From positions 1-31,480 of the forward strand of contig DASWDK010000176.1 of NCBI GenBank assembly GCA_036395335.1: 31,480 nucleotides of DNA. The letters run 5' to 3'. Shown in pieces: positions 12,850-23,116 of the stretch. The notes beneath the pieces were generated by a model. The model was given only the letters and a program-made list of their open reading frames with translations. It had not been told where the DNA came from and ran no database searches. Origin of the DNA: Thermoanaerobaculia bacterium. GTDB lineage: Bacteria > Acidobacteriota > Thermoanaerobaculia > UBA5066 > Gp7-AA6. How positions within the stretch are numbered: the first letter of the stretch is position 1; each line of letters begins with the position of its first letter. A program made the position numbers and the translations under genes.

Positions 12850-12887
12850 CCCGAGTGTCCAGACGTTTACCTAATAAGCCACTTTGG

Positions 12888-12971
12888 AATCAGAGACTTC
12901 GCCCGAGGCTGCCAGCTCTTCCGGGGACGGACTGTCCGACCATGCGGACACCATTTCGAAGTGCGAGGACA
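12888..12971. promoter_or_regulatory. Candidate IHF site (12888-12900) and upstream activator palindrome(s) (12933-12971)
   Basis: AATCAG-AGAC-TTC against WATCAR-N4-TTR. TGTCC-N8-GGACA palindrome at 12933-12950, plus a second GGACAC 21 bp away. Confidence 0.4.
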
Positions 12972-12995
12972 CTCGCGAGATGCCGTCCGGCAGGC

Positions 12996-13004
12996 TGCTA
13001 CTCT
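12996..13004 (+). promoter_or_regulatory. Putative extended -10 (TG-C-TACTCT) for def-cysS
   Basis: TGCTACTCT ends 8 nt before the def ATG at 13013; no SD in between. Confidence 0.45.
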
Positions 13005-13012
13005 CCTCTGCA

Positions 13013-13522
13013 ATGTCGATCCGGAACCTGGTTCGCTGGGGAGACGCGCGCCTTCTCGCCGAGAACCAGGAGGTCCTCTTCGGCGATGACCTCGCGGGCG
13101 TGATCACGGACCTCGTCGACACCTGCCACGCCGCCCCGGGGGTCGGTCTCGCCGCTCCTCAGATCGGAGTCAACCGACGCGTCGCGGTCATCGACCTGTC
13201 GGGAGGCGAGGACGCCTCTGCCATCATCGTCCTCGTGAACCCGTTTATCCTTTCGACCTCCGGCGAGCAGAAGGAGGAAGAAGGCTGCCTCTCGGTTCCC
13301 GACGTCTCCGAGAAGGTCGTGCGGCCCGCCCGGGTCGTCGTGCGGGCGGCGGACGCCGACCTCCAGATCCGTGAAATCGAGGGAACGGGTCTGCTCGCCC
13401 GGGCCCTCTGCCACGAAACCGATCATCTGAACGGAGTTCTCTTCGTGGATCGGTTGCGGGGGCTCAAAGCGGAGATGACCCGGAAGAAGATCGAACGGCG
13501 CCACGCTCGTGGTGCCTGGTGA
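13013..13522 (+). CDS. def: Peptide deformylase
   Basis: GVGLAAPQIG, EGCLS, HETDHLNG motifs. ATG 13013 gives a normal 169 aa. Confidence 0.96.
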   Translation: MSIRNLVRWGDARLLAENQEVLFGDDLAGVITDLVDTCHAAPGVGLAAPQIGVNRRVAVIDLSGGEDASAIIVLVNPFILSTSGEQKEEEGCLSVPDVSEKVVRPARVVVRAADADLQIREIEGTGLLARALCHETDHLNGVLFVDRLRGLKAEMTRKKIERRHARGAW

Positions 13523-14934
13523 AGCTCCACAACACGCTCGGACGTCGGCTCGTCGAGTTCACGCCTCTTGAACCGGGGCACGTCCGCCTCTACACGTGTG
13601 GTCCGACCGTCTACAACGTCGTCCACATCGGCAACCTGCGAACCTTCCTCTTCGAGGACGTCCTGCGCCGACACCTCCTTGCGCGCGGCCACCGGGTGAC
13701 TCAGGTCATGAATCTGACGGACGTCGACGACAAGACGATCCGCGGCGCGGAGCAGGCCGGCGTCCCGCTCGGCGACTTCACCGCCCAGTATTCGGAGGCG
13801 TTTTTCCGCGACATCCGACGGCTGAACGTCGAGCCCGCGGAGCGATACCCGCGGGCGACCGACCACGTTCCCGAGATGGTCGAGCTCATCCGGCGCCTCG
13901 CGGAGCGGGGCCACACCTATGAGTCGGAAGGCTCGGTCTACTTCCGCATTTCGACTTTCCCCGATTATGGAAGGCTCTCGGGGATCGACCTGGACCAGAC
14001 GCGCCGCGGCGACCGCGTCGCCGACGACGAGTACGAGAAGGAGGACGTGCGGGATTTCGCTCTGTGGAAGGCGGCAAAGCCGGGGGAGCCTTCGTGGCCG
14101 TCGCCCTGGGGAGAGGGAAGGCCCGGATGGCACATCGAGTGCTCCGCGATGAGCATGAAGTACCTGGGCCAGCGCTTCGATATCCACACGGGCGCCGTGG
14201 ACAACATCTTTCCCCACCATGAGAACGAGATCGCGCAGAGCGAAGGTGCGACCGGTCACCCCTTCGTCGAGGTCTGGCTGCATGCCGAGCACTTGATCGT
14301 CGACGGCGAGAAGATGGCGAAGTCGAAGGGCAACTTCTACACGCTGGACGACGTGCTCGCCCGGCGCGACGACCCGGCCGCCATTCGATACCTCCTTCTT
14401 TCGGTGCCTTACCGCAAGAAACTGAACTTCACCTGGGACGCGCTCTCGGGGGCGGCCGTCGCCGTTGATCACATTTTTACGACCTGGAGCCGCGTCTCGG
14501 ATTTCGGCGCGGCGTTGGGCTCCAAGCCGGCACCGTTCCCCGCCGAAGAGCGTTCTGAGGAATTCCTCCGCGGCTTCAGCTCCGCGCTCGACGACGATTT
14601 GAACACCCCTCAGGCTCTTGGCGTGCTCTTCCCGTTCCTGACCGAGATCAATAAGGCTTTCGACGAGCGCACGCTCGATGCAAGGGGAGCCGAGATCGCC
14701 CGTCTCGCGATCGAGAGGGCGGACAGGGTGCTCGGCGTGATTTCTTTTCACAGGCAGATGCGGGCGGAGCCCCTCCCTGCCGAGATCGAGGCGCAGATCG
14801 CGGCAAGAAATGCGGCCCGCAAGAGGCGCGACTTCGCGGAGGCCGATCGGATCCGGGACGAGCTCGCCGCCCGGGGAATCGTGCTCGAGGACACGCCGGG
14901 AGGGACGCGGTGGAAGAAAGCGTCGACCGTTTGA
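13519..14934 (+). CDS. cysS: Cysteine--tRNA ligase
   Basis: YTCGPTVY, HIGN, DFALWK, GRPGWHIECSAM, HHENEIAQSE, KMAKS. GTG start overlaps the def TGA. Confidence 0.99.
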   Translation: MKLHNTLGRRLVEFTPLEPGHVRLYTCGPTVYNVVHIGNLRTFLFEDVLRRHLLARGHRVTQVMNLTDVDDKTIRGAEQAGVPLGDFTAQYSEAFFRDIRRLNVEPAERYPRATDHVPEMVELIRRLAERGHTYESEGSVYFRISTFPDYGRLSGIDLDQTRRGDRVADDEYEKEDVRDFALWKAAKPGEPSWPSPWGEGRPGWHIECSAMSMKYLGQRFDIHTGAVDNIFPHHENEIAQSEGATGHPFVEVWLHAEHLIVDGEKMAKSKGNFYTLDDVLARRDDPAAIRYLLLSVPYRKKLNFTWDALSGAAVAVDHIFTTWSRVSDFGAALGSKPAPFPAEERSEEFLRGFSSALDDDLNTPQALGVLFPFLTEINKAFDERTLDARGAEIARLAIERADRVLGVISFHRQMRAEPLPAEIEAQIAARNAARKRRDFAEADRIRDELAARGIVLEDTPGGTRWKKASTV

Positions 14935-14940
14935 TATCCT
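14932..14940 (+). promoter_or_regulatory. Putative extended -10 promoter (TG-A-TATCCT) overlapping the cysS stop codon
   Basis: TGATATCCT ends 7 nt before the leader-peptide ATG at 14948. Confidence 0.55.
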
Positions 14941-14947
14941 CATCACG

Positions 14948-14992
14948 ATGAACGGCCGCTCGGTCTGGTGCTGGCGGGAGGAAAACCGGTAA
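14948..14992 (+). CDS. trpL: trp operon leader peptide MNGRSVWCWREENR (14 aa)
   Basis: ATG AAC GGC CGC TCG GTC TGG TGC TGG CGG GAG GAA AAC CGG TAA: two Trp codons, directly upstream of alternative hairpins and the aro/trp genes. Confidence 0.8.
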   Translation: MNGRSVWCWREENR

Positions 14993-14994
14993 GG

Positions 14995-15073
14995 TCCGGG
15001 CTCGAGGGCTCGGAACCCTGCCGCGATTTTTTTCGGGGCGGGGAGACCAGAGGCAAACGACCCCCGGCCCGGA
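14995..15073 (+). promoter_or_regulatory. Attenuator antiterminator
   Basis: TCCGGGC(TCGAGGG) at 14995-15008 is complementary to (CCCCCG)GCCCGGA at 15061-15073, the terminator's 5' arm and loop. It encloses the hairpin CCCTGCC...GGCGGGG at 15016-15043. Confidence 0.7.
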
Positions 15074-15095
15074 AGGGCTCGGGGGTTTTCGTTTT
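15055..15095 (+). terminator. Attenuator terminator hairpin
   Basis: CCCCCGGCCC-GGAA-GGGC(T)CGGGGG then TTTTCGTTTT: 10-bp GC stem with one bulge, GNRA loop, U-rich tail. Confidence 0.85.
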
Positions 15096-16572
15096 GAGGG
15101 ATCGATCGCTTTCGCTTCCTGCCCACGTGGCGTCGATCGCGCCGCGCGATCTCGCCGACGCGAGGCGCCTCGCTGCGGCCGTTCCCGCTCGGGCGACGGC
15201 GATCGAGTACCGGATGGACGGCGCTGCGGAGAGAATCGCGCCCGCCGCGCTCTCCGAGGTCGATGCCCGGCCCGTGATCGTGACCTGGCGCAGCGTCCGG
15301 GAGGGCGGCCACTTCGAAGGATCCGCGGAGGAATACCGAAGGTTCGTTTCCGAGGCGGCTGCGGCCGGGGCGGTCGTGGACGTCGAGCACGCGAGTGGGC
15401 TCGCGGAGGACCGGGATCTCGTCGAGCGGCGACACCTTCTCGTCTCGTCGCACTTTCCGTTCGGGATTCCACCGGACTGGGAAGCCCGGTTGGCGGCGAT
15501 GCGCTGCACGGGTGCTCTCGCCGTCAAACTCGTCGCGGGGGCGGCCCATCTTCGGGCGAGCCTCGATCTGGCCCAGATCCAGCGGCGATGCGCTGACGGC
15601 AGGACGGCGATCTTCCCGATGGGGCCCGCCAGCGCGCCCGGACGCATTCTGGCGGCGCTCTTCGGATCCGCGCTCGTCTACGGGTCGCTGGGCCGTCCCA
15701 CCGCCGCGGGCCAGCCGACTCTCTCCGAGCTTCTCGACGTCTATGCGACCGACCGCCCCCAGAGACCCCTCGCGCTCTTCGGGATCCTCGCTCTCGACCC
15801 GTCGGGCTCGCTCTCTCCGCTCGTTCACAACGCGCTCTTTCGCGGGCGCGACCTGCCGTTCGCGTATCTCCCGGTCCCGGTCTCGGACTTCGACCGCGAG
15901 CGCCCGAACGAGATCGAGCTCGATCCGCCGTTCCGCGGCTTCTCGATCACGCAACCCTGGAAGACCCGGGCCGCCCGGGTCGGAGCGCCGAGCGAAGACG
16001 TCTCCGCGACGGGAGCGGCCAACACGCTCTTTCTCGAACGGCGGCGGTGGCGCGCCGAGAACACCGACGTCGACGGCATCTTCGATCCGCTGGCGGACCA
16101 TGACACCGGCGAGGGGCGGAGCGCCGTCGTGCTGGGAACCGGAGGCGTCGCGCGCGCCGCGATCGTCGCCGCGCGGCGGCTGGGATACGAGGTTTTCGTG
16201 GCCGGCCGGCGGGATCAGGAGTCGGACGCGATCGCGGAGCGCTTCGGCGTCGACTCGCTCGCCTGGCAGGACGTCGGCGCGAGCGAGGCCGACCTCTACG
16301 TCAACGCCACGCCGGTGGGTTGGCGGGCCGACGATCCGTCGGCCGTCCCGGTCCGCGTCCTCGAGGGACGGCCGCTCGTCTTCGACTGCGTTTACCGCCG
16401 CAACGGGGAAGAGACCTCGACCGTCCGCGCCGCCCGCGCCGCAGGATGCCGCGTCGTCGAAGGTCTCGAGATGTTCGCGGTGCAGGCCGGCGCTCAGGCG
16501 CGACTCTTCGGGGTCGAGGGCGTGACGCGCGAGGAAGTGGCACGGATTCTCGCGGGAGCGCAGGCGTCATGA
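15094..16572 (+). CDS. aroE: Bifunctional type I 3-dehydroquinate dehydratase / shikimate dehydrogenase (AroD-AroE fusion)
   Basis: N-terminal DHQase I (IEYRMD, IVTWR...EGG, SSH, AVKLV, MG....GRI....GS). C-terminal SDH (SLSPLVHN, SITQPWK, GAANT, NTDVDG, LGTGGVARA, NATPVG, DCVY, GLEMF..QA..Q). Start TTG 15094 is inferred. Confidence 0.9.
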   Translation: MRDRSLSLPAHVASIAPRDLADARRLAAAVPARATAIEYRMDGAAERIAPAALSEVDARPVIVTWRSVREGGHFEGSAEEYRRFVSEAAAAGAVVDVEHASGLAEDRDLVERRHLLVSSHFPFGIPPDWEARLAAMRCTGALAVKLVAGAAHLRASLDLAQIQRRCADGRTAIFPMGPASAPGRILAALFGSALVYGSLGRPTAAGQPTLSELLDVYATDRPQRPLALFGILALDPSGSLSPLVHNALFRGRDLPFAYLPVPVSDFDRERPNEIELDPPFRGFSITQPWKTRAARVGAPSEDVSATGAANTLFLERRRWRAENTDVDGIFDPLADHDTGEGRSAVVLGTGGVARAAIVAARRLGYEVFVAGRRDQESDAIAERFGVDSLAWQDVGASEADLYVNATPVGWRADDPSAVPVRVLEGRPLVFDCVYRRNGEETSTVRAARAAGCRVVEGLEMFAVQAGAQARLFGVEGVTREEVARILAGAQAS

Positions 16573-18061
16573 GCCGGCGGGAAGAGGAGAAGCACGCGAT
16601 CCTCGCTCAGAAGGGCAAGGCGTTCCCTGTCGCGCGCGCCTTTCCGAGCGACGAGCGAACCCCGGTCGGCCTCTTCCGCAGGATGCGGAGGTCCGGCGCG
16701 GAATGTTTTCTCCTCGAGAGCGTCGAAGGCGGCGCGGCGATCGCGCGCTACACGTTTCTCGGCGTTGCGCCGGCGGCGCGTCTGACTGTCCGCGGCCACG
16801 AAGTCGAGATCGAGCGCGACGGCCGCCGCCGCCCGGCCCGCACCGGCGCTCTCGAAGCGCTCCGGGCACTCACGGTCCGCGAAGGCTTTGCGCCCGACCC
16901 CGACCTGCCGCCTCTCTGCGCCGGGGCGGTCGGGTTCCTCTCCTACGACGCCGCGCGGCTCTTCGAGGAGATCCCGGACCGGCACTCCCGCGAAGGAGAG
17001 ATCCCGGACGCGCTCTTCCTCCTCTTCGACGCGGTCGTCGCATTCGATCATGTCCGGCAGCGCCTTCTCCTCCTGACATGCGCGGATCTTTCCGTCGCGG
17101 GGGACGAACAGGTCGAGGCGGAAGCCGCGCTCGCGCGACTCGACCGCCTGGAGGAATTTCTTTCTCTACCGTCTCGCCGTTCGCGAAAAGAGGGTGCAGA
17201 CGAGGGACGGAATTCCGCGTCGCGATTCACGCCCGCGATGCCGAAGGAAACCTTTCTGCGTGCGGTCGAGGCCGCGAGAGAAGCGATTCTCGCCGGCGAA
17301 ATTTACCAGGTCGTGCTGTCGCAGCGCTGGGAGGGACCGCTCGGCGCGGACCCCTTCGAGGTGTACCGCGCCCTGAGGGCGTTGAACCGTCTCCTTACCT
17401 CTTTTATCTCGAGACCCGCGAGGCGGCGGTTTTCGGTGCGTCGCCGGAAATGCTGGTGAGGTGCCGCGGCCGGGACGCGGAGACCCGGCCGATCGCGGGC
17501 ACCATTCGGCGCGGGAAGACTGCCGAGGAGGACGAAGCTCTCGCCGCGCGTCTTCTCGTCGACCCGAAGGAGCGTGCGGAGCACGTGATGTTGGTCGACC
17601 TCGGCCGCAACGACCTCGGGCGCGTGTGCGAGATCGGAAGCGTGCGCGTGACCCGATATGCGGAGGTCGAACGGTATTCGCACGTCCAGCACCTGGTGTC
17701 GGAGGTCCGCGGCATGTTGCCCGCTGGAAAGACGTCGACCGATGCCCTCGCCGCCTGCTTCCCGGCGGGGACGCTGACCGGTGCCCCCAAGATCCGAGCG
17801 ATGGAGCTGATCGATCAGCTCGAAGGCTCACGGCGGGGAATCTACGGAGGCGCGGTCGGTTATCTCGACTGCGCGGGCAACCTCGACATGGCGATCGCAA
17901 TCCGCACCGCGGTCGTGGAAAAAGGAATCTGCCGCATCCAGGCGGGCGCGGGGATCGTCGCCGATTCGGTTCCCGAGAACGAGTACCGCGAGGCGGAGTC
18001 GAAAGCCGAGGCGCTCTTCCGCGCCGTGGAGATCGCGCGAGAGAAAGGGACCGCGTCCTGA
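16569..18061 (+). pseudogene. trpE: Anthranilate synthase component I, split by a 1-nt deletion near 17387 (real lesion or sequencing error)
   Basis: The 5' frame (FLLESVEGG..IARYTFLG...GEIYQVVLSQR...YRALRALN) continues in another frame as PSPYLFYL...GASPEML...PIAGT...EHVMLVDLGRND...GAPKIRAM. The DNA reads TTG AAC CG TCT CCT TAC; adding one C restores LNPSPY and a 497-aa ORF. Confidence 0.9.
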
Positions 18062-18660
18062 TCTTCGTCGTCGACAACTACGACTCCTTCACCTGGAACC
18101 TCGTCCAGGCGCTGGGGAAGCTCGATCCCGAGATCTCGGTATCGCGCAATGACCGCTTCGATCCGGAAGACATGGTCTCGCGTCGTCCTCTCGGAATCGT
18201 CGTCTCGCCCGGCCCCGGCCGCCCCGAGAAGGCCGGCCGGTCGCTCGAGGCGATCGCGGCAGCGGAGCGCGAAGGAATTCCGTTGCTCGGGGTCTGCCTG
18301 GGTCATCAGGCGATCGCAGCGCTCCACGGCGGATGCGTGGAGCGGGCCGGGGCGCCCCGTCATGGAAAGACTTCCCGGGTCCTTCACGACGGCGCCGGTC
18401 TCTTCGCCGGAATGCCAAATCCCTTCGATGCGGGGCGGTACCATTCGCTAATCGTGCGCGAGGAAGGCCTTCCCGCGGAGCTCGCCGTCACGGCCCGGAG
18501 CGACGACGGCTACGTCATGGCCCTCGCGCACCGTTCGAAGCCGGTGTTCGGAGTGCAGTTCCATCCGGAATCGGTTCTGACGCCCGAAGGCGAAATGCTC
18601 CTGGCGAACTTTTTCCGGCTCGCCCGCCGTGCCGCGCCCGCCGATTCGGAGGAGCCGTGA
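18058..18660 (+). CDS. trpG: Anthranilate synthase component II (glutamine amidotransferase); probable CTG start
   Basis: IFVVDNYDSFTWNL, SPGPG, GVCLGHQ, RYHSL, GVQFHPES. CTG 18058 overlaps the trpE TGA. Confidence 0.93.
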   Translation: MIFVVDNYDSFTWNLVQALGKLDPEISVSRNDRFDPEDMVSRRPLGIVVSPGPGRPEKAGRSLEAIAAAEREGIPLLGVCLGHQAIAALHGGCVERAGAPRHGKTSRVLHDGAGLFAGMPNPFDAGRYHSLIVREEGLPAELAVTARSDDGYVMALAHRSKPVFGVQFHPESVLTPEGEMLLANFFRLARRAAPADSEEP

Positions 18661-19679
18661 CGCCGAACGTCGCGGAAGCCCTCAAGATCGTCGCCGCGAG
18701 GCACCCTCTGTCACGCGACCTCGCGGAGCGCGTCTTCGGCGACCTCATGGAGGGCAAGGCGACGGAGGCGCAGAAGGGCGCGATCCTGATCGGAATCGCG
18801 ACGCGCGGCGAGACGTCCGACGAGATTGCTGGAGCGGTCTCGGCACTGCGCAGCCGGATGCGCCGTGTCTCGACGTCCCGAGCGCCGCTGCTCGACACAT
18901 GCGGGCCCGGCGGAATCGGCCGCGACATGTTCAACCTCTCCACCGCGACCGCGATCGTCGCAGCGGGCGCGGGAGCCTGCGTCGCCAAGCACGGCAACCG
19001 CTCGATCTCCTCGCGCGTCGGGTCCGCAGACGTCCTCGCGGCTGCGGGAATTGCGATCGATCTCGATCCGGACCGCGCGGGACGGTTGCTCGACGAGATC
19101 GGGCTCGTCTTCCTCTTCGCGCCCGCGTTCCATCCCGCGATGAAGGAGCTCGGTACCGTGAGGAGGGAGCTCGGGGTCCGGACCATCTTCAACGCGCTCG
19201 GCCCCCTCGCGAACCCGGCCGGGGCCACGCGACAGATGATCGGCGTCGGACGACCGGAGCTGGTGCGGCTCCTCGCCGACGCTCTCGCGACCCTGGGATC
19301 GGAGCGGGCGGTCGTCTTCCACTCCGCCAACGGCTTGGACGAGCTCATCCCGGGCGTGCCGGCCTCGGGCATCGAGATCCAGGAAGGTTGGACGCGGCCC
19401 TGGCGGTACGACCCGGGCGACGTCGCACAACGGGCCGTCGACGCGGCCGAGCTCGCCGGCGGCGACGCGTCCTCCAACGCCGCGATGCTGCGTGCGCTCC
19501 TGGAGGGAGAGAAGGGTCCGCGCCGCGAAGCCGTGCTGTTGAACGCCGCGCTCGGACTCGTCGTCGTCGATCTGGCGGAGAGGCTGGAAGAGGGATACGA
19601 ACGCGCGCGTGTCGCGATCGACGAAGGGCACGCCGTTGCGACGTTCGACAAACTGCGCGCCGCGGGAACCCCGGCATGA
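18657..19679 (+). CDS. trpD: Anthranilate phosphoribosyltransferase
   Basis: DTCG.GG.G...FNLST, KHGNRSISSRVGSAD, TIFNALGPL.NP, GLDEL; GTGA overlap. Confidence 0.95.
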   Translation: MTPNVAEALKIVAARHPLSRDLAERVFGDLMEGKATEAQKGAILIGIATRGETSDEIAGAVSALRSRMRRVSTSRAPLLDTCGPGGIGRDMFNLSTATAIVAAGAGACVAKHGNRSISSRVGSADVLAAAGIAIDLDPDRAGRLLDEIGLVFLFAPAFHPAMKELGTVRRELGVRTIFNALGPLANPAGATRQMIGVGRPELVRLLADALATLGSERAVVFHSANGLDELIPGVPASGIEIQEGWTRPWRYDPGDVAQRAVDAAELAGGDASSNAAMLRALLEGEKGPRREAVLLNAALGLVVVDLAERLEEGYERARVAIDEGHAVATFDKLRAAGTPA

Positions 19680-20443
19680 GCGCGGTCCTCGACCGGATCC
19701 TGGCCGACAAGAGACTTCGTCTCGAGCGCGGGGAATACTCCGCGAAGACTCCGGCGAAGGCGGGGAGCGACGGAGCGCGGTTCGTGGCGTCCCTGCGGGA
19801 ACCCGGCGTGCGGATCGTCGCCGAATTCAAGGCGCGGTCCCCGTCGGCGGGAGACATCGTCGTGGGGGCGAACGGCAAAGTCGAGACGTTCGCCTTGGCC
19901 TATCGCCGCGGGCATGCCGCGGCGATCTCGGTCGTCGCGGAGCAGGACCACTTCGGGGGCAGCCCCGAGTGGGTGACGAGGGCGAAACGGATTTCGGGGC
20001 TGCCGGTGCTCCTGAAGGACTTCCTTCTCTCGGAGGCGCAGCTCGACTTCGCCGTTTCCCTCGGAGCCGACGCCGTCCTCCTCGTCGTCCGCGCGCTCCG
20101 CGAGAAAGAGCTCGCGGACCTGCGCCGAGGCGCGGCGGAACGCGGACTGGCCGTGGTCGTCGAAGCGCATGGCCGCGAAGAGATCCCGCGCGCCGCGGCG
20201 GTCGAGCCCGACGTCCTCGGGGTCAACGCCCGGGATCTCGGAACGTTCGAGACGGACCTCGCCGGGCTGGAGCCTCTCGCCGCAGAGATTCCTGCCGGCC
20301 CCGTGCGGCTGGCGGAGAGCGGCGTCTCCTCCCGCGACGACGTCTCGCGCCTCTCGGCAGCCGGATGGGAGGCGTTTCTGGTCGGGGAGACGCTCCTTCG
20401 CGCGGACGACCCCGAGCAGAAGCTCCGGGAGCTCGTCCGGTGA
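19676..20443 (+). CDS. trpC: Indole-3-glycerol phosphate synthase
   Basis: AEFKARSPSAG, KDF, GADAVLL, GVNARDL.TF, AESG, FLVGE; ATGA overlap. Confidence 0.93.
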   Translation: MSAVLDRILADKRLRLERGEYSAKTPAKAGSDGARFVASLREPGVRIVAEFKARSPSAGDIVVGANGKVETFALAYRRGHAAAISVVAEQDHFGGSPEWVTRAKRISGLPVLLKDFLLSEAQLDFAVSLGADAVLLVVRALREKELADLRRGAAERGLAVVVEAHGREEIPRAAAVEPDVLGVNARDLGTFETDLAGLEPLAAEIPAGPVRLAESGVSSRDDVSRLSAAGWEAFLVGETLLRADDPEQKLRELVR

Positions 20444-21066
20444 CGGAGGTGAAGGTCTGCGGTCTGACGCGAGAGGAGGACGTCGTCGCGGCATGCGCCC
20501 TCGGAGCGGCGTTCATCGGGTTCAACTTCTCCGATCTTTCGCCCCGCCGCGTCACGCCGGAGAGGGCGCGGCGGCTCGCGGCGGCCTCCACTCCCGGGGT
20601 GCGGCGGGTCGGCGTCTTCGTCCTCGAAAGCTATCCCGCGATTCGTGAAGCGATTGGTGCGGCGGCGCTCGACCTCGTCCAGCTGCACCGACCGCTCTCG
20701 GAGGAGGATCTCGAATGCGTCCCCCGCCCCGTCCTCGCGGTCGCGCACGTCGGACGGCAAGCGGAGATCCCGCCCGCCCCGCTCCTCGACCGGTGCGCGG
20801 GCATTCTCTTCGACACGTCCGTCTCGGGCGTTCCCGGAGGGACCGGTGTTTCCTTCGACTGGTCGCTGCTCGAAGGTCGCCGATGGCCGGTCCCGCTCTT
20901 CGTCTCCGGCGGACTGCGGTCGGAGAACGTCGGCGAGTCGATCCGTCGTGCGCGCCCGAACGTCGTCGACGTCGCCTCCGGGATCGAGAGCGCGCCGGGC
21001 GCCAAGGATCGCCGCCGCATGCGCCGCTTCTTCGAGGCGGTCCGGCGAGCGGACGAGGCGGAATGA
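20440..21066 (+). CDS. trpF: Phosphoribosylanthranilate isomerase
   Basis: [41 protein letters not shown]; GTGA overlap. Confidence 0.93.
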
Positions 21067-22253
21067 GCGCGCGCGAAAGGAGGAAGAAGGGGTACTTCGG
21101 CGAGTACGGCGGTCGGTTTGCGCCGGAGACTCTCATGGCCCCGCTGGAGGAGCTCGACAGAGCGTTCGAGCGCTGGCGTCGTGAGCCGCGATTCCGTCGC
21201 GAGCTCGAAGGGCTCCTGCGAAACTACGGCGGCCGGCCCACGCCGCTCTCGGAGGCGCCGCGGCTCGCGAAGAGCGCGGGCGGGGCGCGCATCGCACTGA
21301 AGCGCGAAGACCTCCTTCACACCGGCGCCCACAAGCTCAACAACTGCCTCGGGCAGATCCTCCTCGCAAAGCGGATGGGGAAACGCCGCGTGATCGCGGA
21401 GACCGGAGCCGGCCAGCACGGTGTCGCGACGGCCGCGGCGGCAGCGCGGCTGGGAATCCCGTGTCGCGTCTACATGGGCACGGTCGACATGGCGCGCCAG
21501 TCGTCCAACGTGTCGCGGATGCGCCTCCTCGGGGCGGAAGTCGTCGGCGTGGACTCCGGCTCGCGGACGCTCAAGGACGCGATCAACGAGGCGATGCGCG
21601 ATTGGATCGAGAACGTCGGTACGACCCACTACGTCCTGGGCTCTGCTCTCGGCCCGCATCCATATCCGACGATGGTGCGGGACTTCCAGTCGGTGATCGG
21701 GCGAGAAGCCCGAGCGCAGTTCCGCCGGCTCGCGCGCCGCGACCCGGACGCGGCCGTCGCCTGCGTGGGCGGCGGCTCGAACGCGATCGGGCTCTTCTCG
21801 GCGTATCTCGCGACCCGCGTCCGGCTCTATGGGGTCGAAGCCGGGGGTCGCGGGAGCCGGCCCGGCGATCACGCTGCCCGTTTCGCCGGAGGATCGGTGG
21901 GCGTCCTGCACGGTACGAGGACTCTCCTTCTCCAGGACTCGGCCGGACAGGTTCTGCCGACCCACTCGGTCTCGGCAGGACTCGACTATCCGGCGGTCGG
22001 TCCCGAGCACGCCCACCTCGAATCGCTCGGGCGCGTCGAGTACGGAAAGGTTTCCGACGCCGACGCTCTCGACGCGTTTCGGCTCCTCGCGCGGACCGAG
22101 GGAATCCTCCCCGCGCTCGAGAGCGCGCACGCCATTGCCTTTGCCGTCCGTCTGGCGGCCCGGATGCCGAAGAAGGCCTGGATCCTCGTCAATCTCTCCG
22201 GGCGCGGCGACAAGGATCTCGAGATCGTCCTGTCCGCGGCCGGACGGAGTTGA
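21063..22253 (+). CDS. trpB: Tryptophan synthase beta chain
   Basis: [66 protein letters not shown]. Confidence 0.99.
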
Positions 22254-23116
22254 ACTCCTCCCGCATCGCCGACGCTTTCGCGCGTGCCCGGTCCGAAAGG
22301 CGCGCAGCCTTCATCCCGTACTTGACCGCGGGAGATCCGGCTCCCGACGCGACCGTCTTGCTCGCGCGCGTGCTCGAGGGCGCGGGCGCCGACCTCCTCG
22401 AGCTCGGGGTTCCGTTCTCCGATCCGATTGCCGACGGTCCCGTCCTGCAGAGGTCGGCCGCGCGTTCCCTGGCAGCCGGTACGACGCTCGTCGACGTGTA
22501 CCGGATGGCGGAGCAGATCCGGCGCGAAACCTCGCTCGCGCTCGTCCTGTTCTCGTATCTCAATCCGCTTCTTCGACGCGGGCTCGAACGGGCCGCCCGC
22601 GAAGCACGGGGAGCCGGCTTCGACGCAATCCTTGTTACCGACCTCCCGCCCGACGAAGGAGACGGCATCCAGCCGGTCTTCCGCGCAGCCGGCCTCGAGA
22701 CGGTGTTCCTGGTTTCGCCGACGTCGCCCGCGTCCCGCATGTCGCGGGCGGCCTCGCTCTCGACCGGTTTTCTCTACGTCGTCTCGCGCCCGGGAACGAC
22801 CGGAATGCGCGATTCTCTCCCGACCGATCTGCCGGCAACGGTCGCGCGCGCGCGGCGCGCAGTGGGACGGGCGGGAAAACGACCGTCCGGGGAAGCGTGG
22901 CTCCCGGTGGCCGTCGGCTTCGGAATCTCGACGCCCGCCACCGCGCGGCTCGCTGCGCAGCTGGCGGACGGGGTGGTCGTCGGATCGGCGCTGGTGGCCG
23001 CGGCGGAGGAGAACGAGAGAGACGCCGCCGGCGCGGTCGGCCGGCTCGCACGACGGCTCGCCCGCGCCAGCCGTCGACCGAGAGCTCCGGGGCTCAAAAT
23101 CAAGAGTCCCGGGTAG
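22250..23116 (+). CDS. trpA: Tryptophan synthase alpha chain
   Basis: [55 protein letters not shown]; TTG start in a TTGA overlap. Confidence 0.97.

What the first reader, a model, noticed from the sequence alone, without database searches (positions are those of the whole stretch)
14948..15095. Trp-codon leader peptide and classical attenuator ahead of the aro/trp operon
Seen: a 14-aa ORF MNGRSVWCWREENR, a GC hairpin with U-tract at 15061-15095, and a competing strand at 14995-15008 complementary to the terminator's 5' arm. GGGCTCG occurs at 14998, 15006 and 15075, so segments 2 and 4 mimic each other, and GCTCGG at 14958 could pair with segment 2. The geometry fits the E. coli trpL mechanism: a ribosome stalled at TGG-TGC-TGG (14966-14974) leaves segment 2 free, while one reaching TAA at 14990-14992 covers it. 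Inference: ribosome-mediated trp attenuation in a probable Acidobacteriota genome, a lineage where I do not know it to be described, with an unusual W-C-W sensor. Automated annotation will miss it.
Basis: partly seen in the sequence, partly recalled or inferred. Interest (0 to 1): 0.75.

Follow-up and report, generated by a model that had tools for sequence, protein, structure and literature searches.

The report
Tryptophan-sensing leader-peptide attenuator, Acidobacteriota
A 14-codon mini-gene with tryptophan codons, followed by a chain of competing RNA hairpins and a transcription stop signal, almost certainly lets this uncultured soil acidobacterium switch on its tryptophan operon only when tryptophan runs short; the trick is classical, but this lineage-wide, re-programmable version is not in the literature I could search.

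Summary
Comparison shows a real ribosome-mediated attenuator. The same leader ORF, hairpin chain and terminator precede the aroD-aroE/trp operon in 71 of 80, 6 of 7 and 61 of 63 genomes of the three families of this order (class Thermoanaerobaculia).

The regulatory codons follow operon content:
- W-only leaders precede aroDE-trp (49 of 49).
- HHWHH-type leaders precede aroDE-his-trp supraoperons (6 of 6 in family f1; also two f2 genera).
- H-only copies precede hisZ-hisG (3 of 3).
- W/Y leaders occur in family f3.

The conserved architecture is not the E. coli four-segment geometry. It is a five-segment relay, A:B / B:C / C:D / D:E. Helix A contains the leader's stop codon. A ribosome at the stop frees B, B traps C, and the terminator D:E forms. 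A ribosome stalled at Trp codons leaves A:B intact, so C pairs with D and blocks the terminator.

The leader appears leaderless, and the aroDE start (TTG) sits in the terminator's U-tract. No Rfam family matches.

This scan has already noted related acidobacterial leaders on other DNA (e1-1202638, e1-2141596, e1-2173725).

The parts
14932..14940 (+). Probable extended -10 promoter (TG-A-TATCCT). It overlaps the cysS stop TGA, and the leader ATG follows 7 nt after the hexamer.
   Evidence: Sequence. TGnTAnnnT is conserved in the genus. In 87 of 92 family members an in-frame leader start lies 6-11 nt (mode 9) after a -10 hexamer. The lead came from note e1-5334163. The transcription start was not measured.
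14948..14992 (+). Leader ORF MNGRSVWCWREENR*, probably translated from a leaderless mRNA.
   Evidence: Homologous 14-19-codon ORFs occur in all related loci.
14966..14974 (+). Regulatory codons TGG-TGC-TGG. The last Trp codon lies 6 codons before the stop.
   Evidence: A W at this position is invariant in aroDE leaders, and many genera have WWW. The TGC codon is variable: 14969 T>C gives CGC in three metagenomes, and L012 reads WRW.
14987..14995 (+). Segment A (CGGTAAGGT), made of the last sense codon, the stop codon and 3 nt. It pairs with B.
   Evidence: GGTA is invariant in the f1 alignments. The A:B helices are 92-97% paired in 55 sequences. The A..B hairpin folds at -21.8 kcal/mol in the window.
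14995..15014 (+).
   Evidence: It is present only in L001-3, L007, L009 and L010, with different but self-complementary sequences. It is absent from the other f1 and f3 members.
15016..15026 (+). Segment B (CCCTGCCG plus CGA). It pairs with A or with C.
   Evidence: CCCTGCC is invariant in f1. The B:C helix is 95.4% paired. The B..C hairpin folds at -20.7 kcal/mol.
15033..15043 (+). Segment C (TCGGGGCGGGG). It pairs with B as the anti-antiterminator, or with D as the antiterminator.
   Evidence: C:D folds at -18.0 kcal/mol in the window.
15061..15071 (+). Segment D, the terminator 5' arm (CCCCCGGCCCG).
15075..15085 (+). Segment E, the terminator 3' arm (GGGCTCGGGGG). Its G-run is the likely Shine-Dalgarno site for aroDE, 8 nt before the TTG.
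   Evidence: D:E folds at -22.3 kcal/mol, with compensatory changes in relatives. The SD role is inferred from the spacing.
15086..15095 (+). Terminator U-tract (TTTTCGTTTT).
15094..16572 (+). aroD-aroE fusion gene (type I dehydroquinase plus shikimate dehydrogenase). The probable start is TTG 15094, inside the U-tract, not GTG 15127.
   Evidence: Pfam. The codon at the 15127 position is GTC in many relatives. An in-frame TTG or ATG lies within the U-tract in 74 of 97 family members.
16569..23116 (+). trpE-trpG-trpD-trpC-trpF-trpB-trpA, the regulated operon.
   Evidence: Pfam and tblastn gene order. trpE is split by a 1-nt deletion after 17386 in this assembly only.

Best explanation
This is a ribosome-mediated (leader-peptide) transcription attenuator of the aroDE-trpEGDCFBA operon, built as a five-segment relay.

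Transcription probably starts at or next to the leader ATG, so the mRNA is leaderless. Five segments can pair in two exclusive sets.

With Trp-tRNA plentiful:
- The ribosome runs to the stop codon, which lies inside segment A (14987-14995).
- It holds A single-stranded.
- B (15016-15026) pairs with C (15033-15043).
- D (15061-15071) stays free and forms the terminator with E (15075-85) plus the U-tract. Transcription ends.

With Trp-tRNA scarce:
- The ribosome stalls at TGG 14966 or 14972. Its front edge stops about 5 nt short of A.
- The A:B hairpin forms, with its apical extension.
- C stays free and captures D as soon as D is made.
- E cannot form the terminator. RNA polymerase reads into aroDE, and the SD-like G-run of E is exposed.

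Shown here: the elements, their conservation, the complementarity chain, codon-operon matching, and the in-silico switch.

Inferred: leaderless start, stall footprints, kinetic order, Trp dependence, and the SD role of E.

My odds are about 0.9 for 'Trp leader-peptide attenuator' and about 0.65 for this relay being the operative pathway in this particular genome.
For: (1) Context. cysS, a 159-nt spacer to TTG 15094 (192 nt to GTG 15127), then aroDE-trpEGDCFBA.

(2) Conservation. The terminator and a W-bearing leader ORF occur in 29 of 29 loci. Model R1 hits 71 of 80 f1 and 6 of 7 f3 genomes. Model R2 hits 61 of 63 f2 genomes.

(3) Codons track the operon.
- W-only leaders precede aroDE-trpE in 49 of 49 cases, HHWHH-type precede aroDE-hisZ in 6 of 6, and H-only precede hisZ in 3 of 3.
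- f2 leaders such as RHWHSHHT precede aroDE-hisZGDCBHA-IE-trpEGDCF.
- The WYWYW leaders of f3 precede aroDE-trp-DAHP synthase.

(4) Both pairing sets are compatible with the sequences. A:B plus C:D is 94.2% paired and B:C plus D:E is 95.3% paired, against 28-72% for slid controls.

(5) The four helices are iso-energetic: mean -19.5, -19.1, -18.5 and -19.8 kcal/mol.

(6) Constrained folding in f1/f3, transcript through D.
- Ribosome at the stop: B:C in 53 of 55, C:D in 0 of 55.
- Stalled ribosome: C:D in 50 of 55.

(7) Constrained folding in f2, full transcript at equilibrium.
- Ribosome at the stop: terminator in 44 of 46.
- Stalled ribosome: terminator in 10 of 46, and D held by an upstream partner in 33 of 46.

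(8) Architecture-level covariation.
- f2 genera have different A-E sequences but keep the chain. In g19, C (GUCGUCCGAGGG) matches D (CCCUCGGACGAC).
- In g21 the GGCU/AGCC pairing replaces GGUC/GGAC.
- C pairs with nucleotides in the terminator loop, which the terminator itself does not need. f3 likewise keeps GGCCG in its terminator loop.

(9) The apical insertions in helix A:B differ in sequence, yet all pair.
Against: - There are no RNA data. No listed run is RNA, so no 5' end, 3' end or Trp response has been observed.
- Nucleotide-level covariation within f1 is thin because the sequence is nearly invariant.
- In f1 the full-length equilibrium fold forms the terminator in every state, so antitermination must be kinetic. 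That was not simulated.
- For the window and its nearest relatives (L001-3, L007), constrained folding does not give C:D under stall. It gives B:C plus D paired to 14993-15004 or to A.
- The model predicts read-through without translation, opposite to E. coli superattenuation. This is untested.
- The window has only two Trp codons, separated by a variable codon.
Confidence: 0.8

Rival explanations
1. The first reader's classical four-segment model operates in this genome. The strand 14993-15008 (GGGCTCG repeats) is the antiterminator that pairs directly with the terminator 5' arm 15061-15071, and B:C is a passive internal hairpin. A ribosome at TAA covers that strand. A ribosome stalled at the Trp codons leaves it free.
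For: The strand mimics the terminator 3' arm: GGGCTCGAGGG against GGGCTCGGGGG. With the stalled-ribosome constraint, the MFE of the window transcript pairs 14993-15004 with D and keeps B:C. It scores -41.9 kcal/mol, against about -39.8 for A:B plus C:D. L001, L002 and L003 share the strand.
Against: The strand lies in an insertion that 23 of the first 29 relatives lack, as do all 71 pattern-scan hits. L007, L009 and L010 carry unrelated sequences there. A ribosome at TAA reaches only to about 15000, which leaves the second GGGCTCG copy (15006-12) free to pair with D. This weakens the ON/OFF logic. The A:B-extension hairpin (-21.8 kcal/mol) forms first during transcription and would have to melt. 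The proposed 1:2 pairing (GCTCGG at 14958) is not kept in L002 or L003.
Confidence: 0.2
2. The hairpin is simply the cysS terminator, the small ORF is a chance reading frame, and the aro/trp operon has no attenuation.
For: In this genus the element directly follows cysS. High-GC DNA is full of spurious ORFs.
Against: In most f1 and f3 genera the element sits behind its own TTGACA-17-TAnnnT promoter with no cysS upstream, and always before aroDE or hisZ. The ORF frame, stop position and W/H/Y codons are conserved while the rest of the peptide varies.
Confidence: 0.02
3. The RNA switch senses something other than a translating ribosome, such as uncharged tRNA, a protein like TRAP, or a ligand. 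The ORF is incidental.
For: The highly conserved hairpin chain could in principle be a binding platform. No experiment excludes it.
Against: There is no T-box, riboswitch or other Rfam match in the window or in 12 related loci. The scaffold stays the same while only the codon identity (W, H, W/H, W/Y) switches with the operon's product. The stop codon is fixed inside helix A. This is what a ribosome sensor predicts and what a ligand sensor does not.
Confidence: 0.03

Closest known systems
Escherichia coli trp operon attenuator (trpL; Rfam Trp_leader RF00513)
   Same: A 14-codon leader with Trp codons, an intrinsic terminator before the first structural gene, mutually exclusive antiterminator and terminator, and a ribosome at the stop codon favouring termination.
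   Different: There is no sequence or structure match to RF00513. It has five competing segments, not four. The Trp codons are not inside a conserved pairing segment, so there is no 1:2 hairpin. The ribosome acts by melting a helix that contains the stop codon, and the signal passes through an extra B:C step. The predicted default without translation is read-through. The leader is probably leaderless. The operon starts with aroD-aroE.
Salmonella/E. coli his operon attenuator (hisL; Rfam His_leader RF00514), with its six-segment A:B, C:D, E:F versus B:C, D:E relay (from my own knowledge of the Johnston et al. 1980 model)
   Same: It is a chain of more than four alternately pairing segments that relays ribosome position to a distant terminator. 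The present A-E correspond to his B-F. His-codon versions of the present scaffold control hisZ-hisG.
   Different: The first his segment, which carries the regulatory codons and pairs with the next, has no conserved counterpart here. There is no Rfam match.
Corynebacterium glutamicum ilvBNC attenuator (three-hairpin model, leaderless leader peptide; PMC11857589)
   Same: A leaderless leader ORF; anti-antiterminator, antiterminator and terminator hairpins of comparable stability; ribosome pausing at control codons decides the outcome.
   Different: In C. glutamicum the anti-antiterminator covers the translation start. Here helix A:B lies at the stop codon. The phylum, amino acids and sequences all differ.
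Mycobacterial leaderless polycysteine short ORFs ('Cys ribulon'; bioRxiv 10.1101/834739)
   Same: Leaderless sensory short ORFs whose stalled ribosomes remodel downstream RNA structure. One scaffold is reused at several operons.
   Different: Those control translation by unmasking a ribosome-binding site. Here a canonical intrinsic terminator is present, and SD masking by the terminator arm is only a possible second layer.
Multivalent leaders (thr, ilvGMEDA of E. coli; from my own knowledge)
   Same: Mixed regulatory codons (H+W, W+Y) report several end products of one operon.
   Different: Here the mix changes between sister lineages in step with the gain or loss of his genes in the operon.

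Membership tests
Ribosome-mediated (leader-peptide) transcription attenuators | Short upstream ORF enriched in codons for the operon's end-product amino acid | tested here: met
   The window has 2 Trp in 14 codons, and relatives have WWW. The codons switch to H, H+W or W+Y with operon content.
Ribosome-mediated (leader-peptide) transcription attenuators | Intrinsic terminator (GC stem plus U-tract) between the leader ORF and the first structural gene | tested here: met
   Stem at 15061-15085 plus U-tract at 15086-15095, -22.3 kcal/mol. It is present in 29 of 29 loci.
Ribosome-mediated (leader-peptide) transcription attenuators | Alternative pairing that sequesters the terminator 5' arm, with its formation dependent on ribosome position | tested here: met
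   In silico only. C:D forms in 50 of 55 with a stalled ribosome and 0 of 55 with a ribosome at the stop. In f2 the terminator forms in 44 of 46 against 10 of 46. C:D complementarity extends into the terminator loop.
Ribosome-mediated (leader-peptide) transcription attenuators | Amino-acid-dependent read-through in vivo or in vitro | not testable with these tools
   All genomes are uncultured MAGs, and no listed sequencing run is RNA.
Rfam Trp_leader (RF00513) / His_leader (RF00514) | Match to the family covariance model | tested here: not met
   There is no match at gathering score, or at E up to 10, in the window. There is none in 12 related loci.
E. coli-type four-segment geometry (1:2, 2:3, 3:4) | Regulatory codons lie in segment 1, which pairs with segment 2, and three overlapping hairpins suffice | tested here: not met
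The conserved structure has five segments. The Trp-codon region has no conserved partner.
T-box / riboswitch leaders | Conserved ligand- or tRNA-binding fold | tested here: not met
   No Rfam match.
Leaderless sensory short ORFs | Transcription start at the start codon, with no Shine-Dalgarno site | tested here: inconclusive
   Promoter geometry fits in 87 of 92 sequences, with the start 6-11 nt after the -10 hexamer. The window has TGATATCCT-N7-ATG and no SD. No 5'-end data exist.

The most novel reading that the evidence does not exclude
One homologous, leaderless five-segment 'relay' attenuator scaffold is ancestral to an order of Thermoanaerobaculia, and perhaps to more of the class. It has been re-programmed repeatedly by swapping only the sensor codons (H+W, W, H, W+Y) as his genes moved in and out of an aro-his-trp supraoperon. 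It works with inverted first-step logic: a terminating ribosome melts a helix that contains the stop codon. The untranslated default is therefore ON. The terminator's 3' arm doubles as the Shine-Dalgarno site of a UUG start codon embedded in the U-tract, which couples transcriptional and translational control.
Probability: 0.45. Interest if true: 0.72.

Novelty: new variant of a known kind. Interest (0 to 1): 0.6.

Why it matters
Leader-peptide attenuation is a textbook mechanism, but it has been documented mainly in Proteobacteria, Actinobacteria and some Firmicutes. A 2010 survey noted that almost none of the predicted acidobacterial attenuators had an assigned function (PMC2965389). I found no paper describing one in Acidobacteriota.

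This family offers a natural experiment. The same RNA scaffold carries W, H, H+W or W+Y codons according to which pathway genes follow it. That is about as strong as comparative evidence for ribosome sensing gets without a culture.

It also shows a different wiring: the stop codon sits inside the first helix, an extra relay step is present, the start is probably leaderless, and the start codon lies in the U-tract.

Practically, it corrects the annotation of the aroDE start, adds an unannotated regulatory gene, and provides two covariance models that could seed an Rfam family.

Tried and rejected
- **Rfam.** Searches of the window and of 12 related loci found nothing relevant.
- **Full-length equilibrium folding of f1/f3 leaders with ribosome blocks.** The terminator forms in all states, so this is uninformative. 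I replaced it with folding of the transcript up to segment D.
- **An early ribosome block reaching stop+14.** It clipped segment B and gave misleading results. I refined it to stop+10.
- **'D paired to anything'.** This measure is noisy because G-rich Trp codons pair weakly with D.
- **Model R1 on family f2.** It found nothing (0 of 63), and I nearly read this as absence. Inspection of aroDE upstream regions and a second model showed f2 has the element with diverged sequence.
- **A segment upstream of A, to complete a his-like six-segment scheme.** I saw a candidate only in L014 and no conserved one. This was judged by eye, not tested systematically.
- **ACCAG between C and D pairing with the CUGGU of the Trp codons.** It is not conserved, for example in L002 and L018.
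- **Sequencing runs.** No RNA holder is listed.
- **hisZ search in genus g1.** It returned only HisS-like matches at 30-32% identity, so I could not tell whether g1 his operons carry a leader.
- **Folding of the other-order candidates L213 and L209.** It gave no clear switch at equilibrium.
- **Nine of the 80 pattern-scan loci searched with model R1** (Streptomyces, Dermatophilaceae, Chthoniobacterales and others). They did not match the model and are chance hits.

Full report
**1. Observation**

- ATG 14948 to TAA 14990-14992 encodes MNGRSVWCWREENR.
- TGG-TGC-TGG lies at 14966-14974.
- GGGCTCG occurs at 14998, 15006 and 15075, and GCTCGG at 14958.
- A GC-rich hairpin has arms 15061-15071 and 15075-15085, followed by TTTTCGTTTT at 15086-15095.

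The terminator scan finds the hairpin core. The region folds 4 standard deviations better than shuffles. No Rfam family matches, at gathering score or at E up to 10.

**2. Context**

Pfam identifies, in order:
- def (12884-13522) and cysS (13519-14934);
- the spacer;
- an aroD-aroE fusion, then trpE, trpG, trpD, trpC, trpF, trpB and trpA ending at 23116;
- rodZ.

The organism is an uncultured member of class Thermoanaerobaculia, phylum Acidobacteriota. All 71 genuine hits of a motif scan over about 185,000 species genomes carry those labels. Soil metagenomes hold the stretch.

**3. The element is conserved and belongs to the operon, not to cysS**

The aroDE gene was located in 57 of 61 related genomes.
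- All 29 full loci of family f1 carry the terminator about 65 nt upstream.
- All 29 carry a leader ORF with Trp codons 5-6 codons before its stop.

A covariance model built on these, R1, finds one copy per genome in 71 of 80 f1 and 6 of 7 f3 genomes. It finds none in 149 genomes from the rest of the phylum.

R1 missed family f2. Reading the f2 aroDE upstream regions showed the same layout with diverged sequence. A second model, R2, finds it in 61 of 63 f2 genomes, including 37 of 37 high-quality ones.

Outside genus g1 and family f2, the element has its own TTGACA-17-TAnnnT promoter and other upstream genes. It therefore travels with aroDE.

Two of four genomes from other orders of the class show a similar layout by eye:
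- G259 has a ...HGWWNEL leader, a hairpin chain and a terminator.
- G159 has a ...GWWGFVHHHVE leader, but I saw no clear terminator.
I do not build on these two.

**4. Regulatory codons follow operon content**

This is the strongest argument for ribosome sensing. Among 92 distinct f1/f3 leaders:
- W-only leaders (WWW, WW, WCW) precede aroDE followed directly by trpE: 49 of 49 with enough sequence.
- HHWHH-type leaders precede aroDE-hisZ: 6 of 6. In G032 the full order is aroDE-hisG-D-C-B-H-A-IE-trpE-trpG.
- H-only leaders (HHGHH, HPHHH) are second copies of the scaffold in front of hisZ-hisG-hisD: 3 of 3.
- f3 leaders read WYWYW or YWYW, before aroDE-trpEGDCFBA-DAHP synthase.
- f2 leaders read RHWHSHHT, LWHWHHT or WHWHWHHG. 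In both genera checked they precede aroDE-hisZGDCBHA-IE-trpEGDCF.

The rest of each peptide is variable.

The window's W-C-W is a drifted WWW. Within the genus the first position varies (W, G, L, C). One relative reads W-R-W. Contigs from three soil metagenomes covering this locus read CGC instead of TGC at 14969.

**5. The conserved RNA architecture**

The invariant blocks are GGTA (the stop), CCCTGCC, GG..GGGG, CCCC..CC and GGGGG-T. They form a chain of complementarity, given here as the common f1 form with window coordinates:

| Segment | Common f1 sequence | Window coordinates |
|---|---|---|
| A | CGG-UAG-GGCG | 14987-14995, plus an apical extension to 15014 |
| B | CGCCCUGCCG | 15016-15026 |
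| C | CGGGCGGGGCG | 15033-15043 |
| D | CCCCCGGCCCG | 15061-15071 |
| E | GGGCUCGGGGG | 15075-15085 |

A:B with C:D excludes B:C with D:E.

Evidence for both pairing sets:
- On 55 Infernal-aligned sequences, 94.2% and 95.3% of cells pair, against 28-72% for slid controls.
- Single-nucleotide covariation is sparse. This is expected when every base serves two partners.
- The four hairpins are balanced: mean -19.5, -19.1, -18.5 and -19.8 kcal/mol. In the window they are -21.8, -20.7, -18.0 and -22.3.

Three observations support the architecture independently:
- (i) Six relatives, including the window, carry an insertion at the tip of A:B. The sequences differ, but all are self-complementary.
- (ii) f3 has a shorter terminator stem but keeps GGCCG in the terminator loop, where only C:D needs it.
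- (iii) f2 genera have entirely different A-E sequences that keep the chain. In g19, C matches D perfectly over 12 bp, including loop nucleotides. g21 shows double compensatory changes. In g22 all five segments can be read off directly. The mean f2 C:D duplex is -21.5 kcal/mol, z = -2.9.

**6. Mechanism: in-silico test**

I blocked the nucleotides a ribosome would occupy, from P-site -15 to +13.

For f1/f3 transcripts that end after D:
- A ribosome at the stop gives B:C in 53 of 55 and C:D in 0 of 55.
- A ribosome with the Trp codon in its A site gives C:D in 50 of 55.

For f2 the switch appears even at full-length equilibrium:
- Ribosome at the stop: terminator in 44 of 46.
- Stalled ribosome: terminator in 10 of 46, and D held by an upstream partner in 33 of 46.

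In f1 the full-length equilibrium always favours the terminator. Antitermination must therefore be kinetic: C captures D before E is made. This is usual for attenuators but was not simulated here.

Without any ribosome, the model predicts A:B plus C:D, meaning read-through (42 of 55). This differs from E. coli.

**7. The window's own peculiarity**

In L001-3 and L007 the constrained folds do not yield C:D under stall.

The two states differ by about 2 kcal/mol: -41.9 against about -39.8. Both give the same regulatory logic. I favour the relay, at about 0.65, for three reasons:
- It is the conserved design.
- The A:B-extension hairpin forms first during transcription.

**8. Further features**

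*(a) Leaderless start.*
- In 87 of 92 leaders an in-frame start lies 6-11 nt (mode 9) after a -10 hexamer.
- In the window the extended -10, TG-A-TATCCT, overlaps the cysS stop, and ATG follows after 7 nt with no SD.
- In f2 the -35 TTGACA overlaps the cysS stop.

*(b) aroDE start.*
- The aroDE reading frame most likely starts at TTG 15094, inside the U-tract.
- The GTG at 15127 is GTC in many relatives.
- An in-frame TTG or ATG lies in the U-tract in 74 of 97 members, with a modal offset of +8 from the stem.
- The G-run of E would then be the SD, masked by the terminator hairpin and exposed in the antiterminated form. This is inference.

**9. Comparison with what is known**

The element works like the E. 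coli trpL and Salmonella hisL attenuators. It is not a member of their Rfam families, and it does not have the four-segment geometry.

Leaderless leader ORFs in attenuators are known from:
- C. glutamicum ilvBNC (PMC11857589);
- the mycobacterial Cys short ORFs (10.1101/834739).

I found no paper describing leader-peptide attenuation in Acidobacteriota. PMC2965389 states that predicted acidobacterial attenuators lacked assigned functions.

Within this scan, related leaders were noted before on other genomes:
- e1-1202638 describes a His/Trp leader that matches family f2 here.
- e1-2141596 describes a WWW leader in Vicinamibacterales.
- e1-2173725 describes a Trp/Tyr leader.

**10. Unpublished data**

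Genome G025 (loci L025 and L076) is unpublished. It contributes one row to the tallies and lists. It was left out of both models and of alignments A2, A4, A6 and A9.

**11. Verdict**

The wiring is revised to a conserved five-segment relay with re-programmable sensor codons. This is a new variant of a known kind, and of moderate to high interest.

Noticed in passing
window 17386-17387 (trpE): trpE is split over two frames by a 1-nt deletion relative to congeners, in the ...AAT/C-CCG... codons. Contigs from four soil metagenome studies all carry an extra C after 17386. The frameshift is therefore most likely an assembly error or a rare variant of this MAG, not a pseudogene.
   Followed up: yes
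window 15081-15096: The aroD-aroE ORF probably starts at TTG 15094, inside the terminator U-tract. The terminator's 3'-arm G-run, 8 nt upstream, is the only SD-like sequence. The GTG at 15127 is not conserved and reads GTC in relatives. This implies a second, translational layer of control.
   Followed up: partly
L067 (G005:C176), L068 (G085:C115), L069 (G087:C163): Second copies of the same RNA scaffold carry His-only leaders (..HHGHHQGNR, ..HPHHHEVNG). They sit directly upstream of hisZ-hisG-hisD and look like a paralogous histidine attenuator.
   Followed up: partly
L078 (G032), L215 (G045), L216 (G057): An aro-his-trp supraoperon (aroDE-hisZGDCBHA-IE-trpEGDCF...) lies under a single mixed His/Trp leader, in family f2 and in genus g7 of f1. 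This is probably the ancestral arrangement. The window's genus has lost the his block and the His codons.
   Followed up: partly
window 14942, 14952, 14969, 15092, 15112: Strain-level variants appear in metagenome contigs: A>G in the promoter-start spacer, AAC>ATC (N2I), TGC>CGC (Cys>Arg in the sensor), one T fewer in the U-tract, and T>C downstream. None touches segments A-E.
   Followed up: no
L071-L075 (family f2) and window 14932-14934: cysS lies immediately upstream of the leader both in f2 and in genus g1 of f1, with a promoter element overlapping the cysS stop codon (-35 TTGACA in f2, extended -10 in g1). This suggests an old cysS-leader-aroDE linkage.
   Followed up: no
L019 (G003:C29), L067 (G005:C176): Two genomes assigned to the window's genus carry contigs with g7-type features: an HHWHH leader with only 65% aroDE identity in one, and a His-leader copy in the other. 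These may be mis-binned contigs in those MAGs.
   Followed up: no
L213 (G259, family f6) and L209 (G159, family f4): Genomes from other orders of the class also have short W- or W/H-bearing ORFs upstream of aroDE. G259 has ...HGWWNEL with a hairpin chain and a U-rich terminator. G159 has ...GWWGFVHHHVE. The system may therefore be older than the order.
   Followed up: partly
window 14975-14981 and relatives: A Shine-Dalgarno-like CGGGAGG or GAGGUG follows the Trp codons inside most, but not all, leader ORFs. Its function is unknown. It could be an extra G-rich competitor strand, or a site of ribosome slowing.
   Followed up: no
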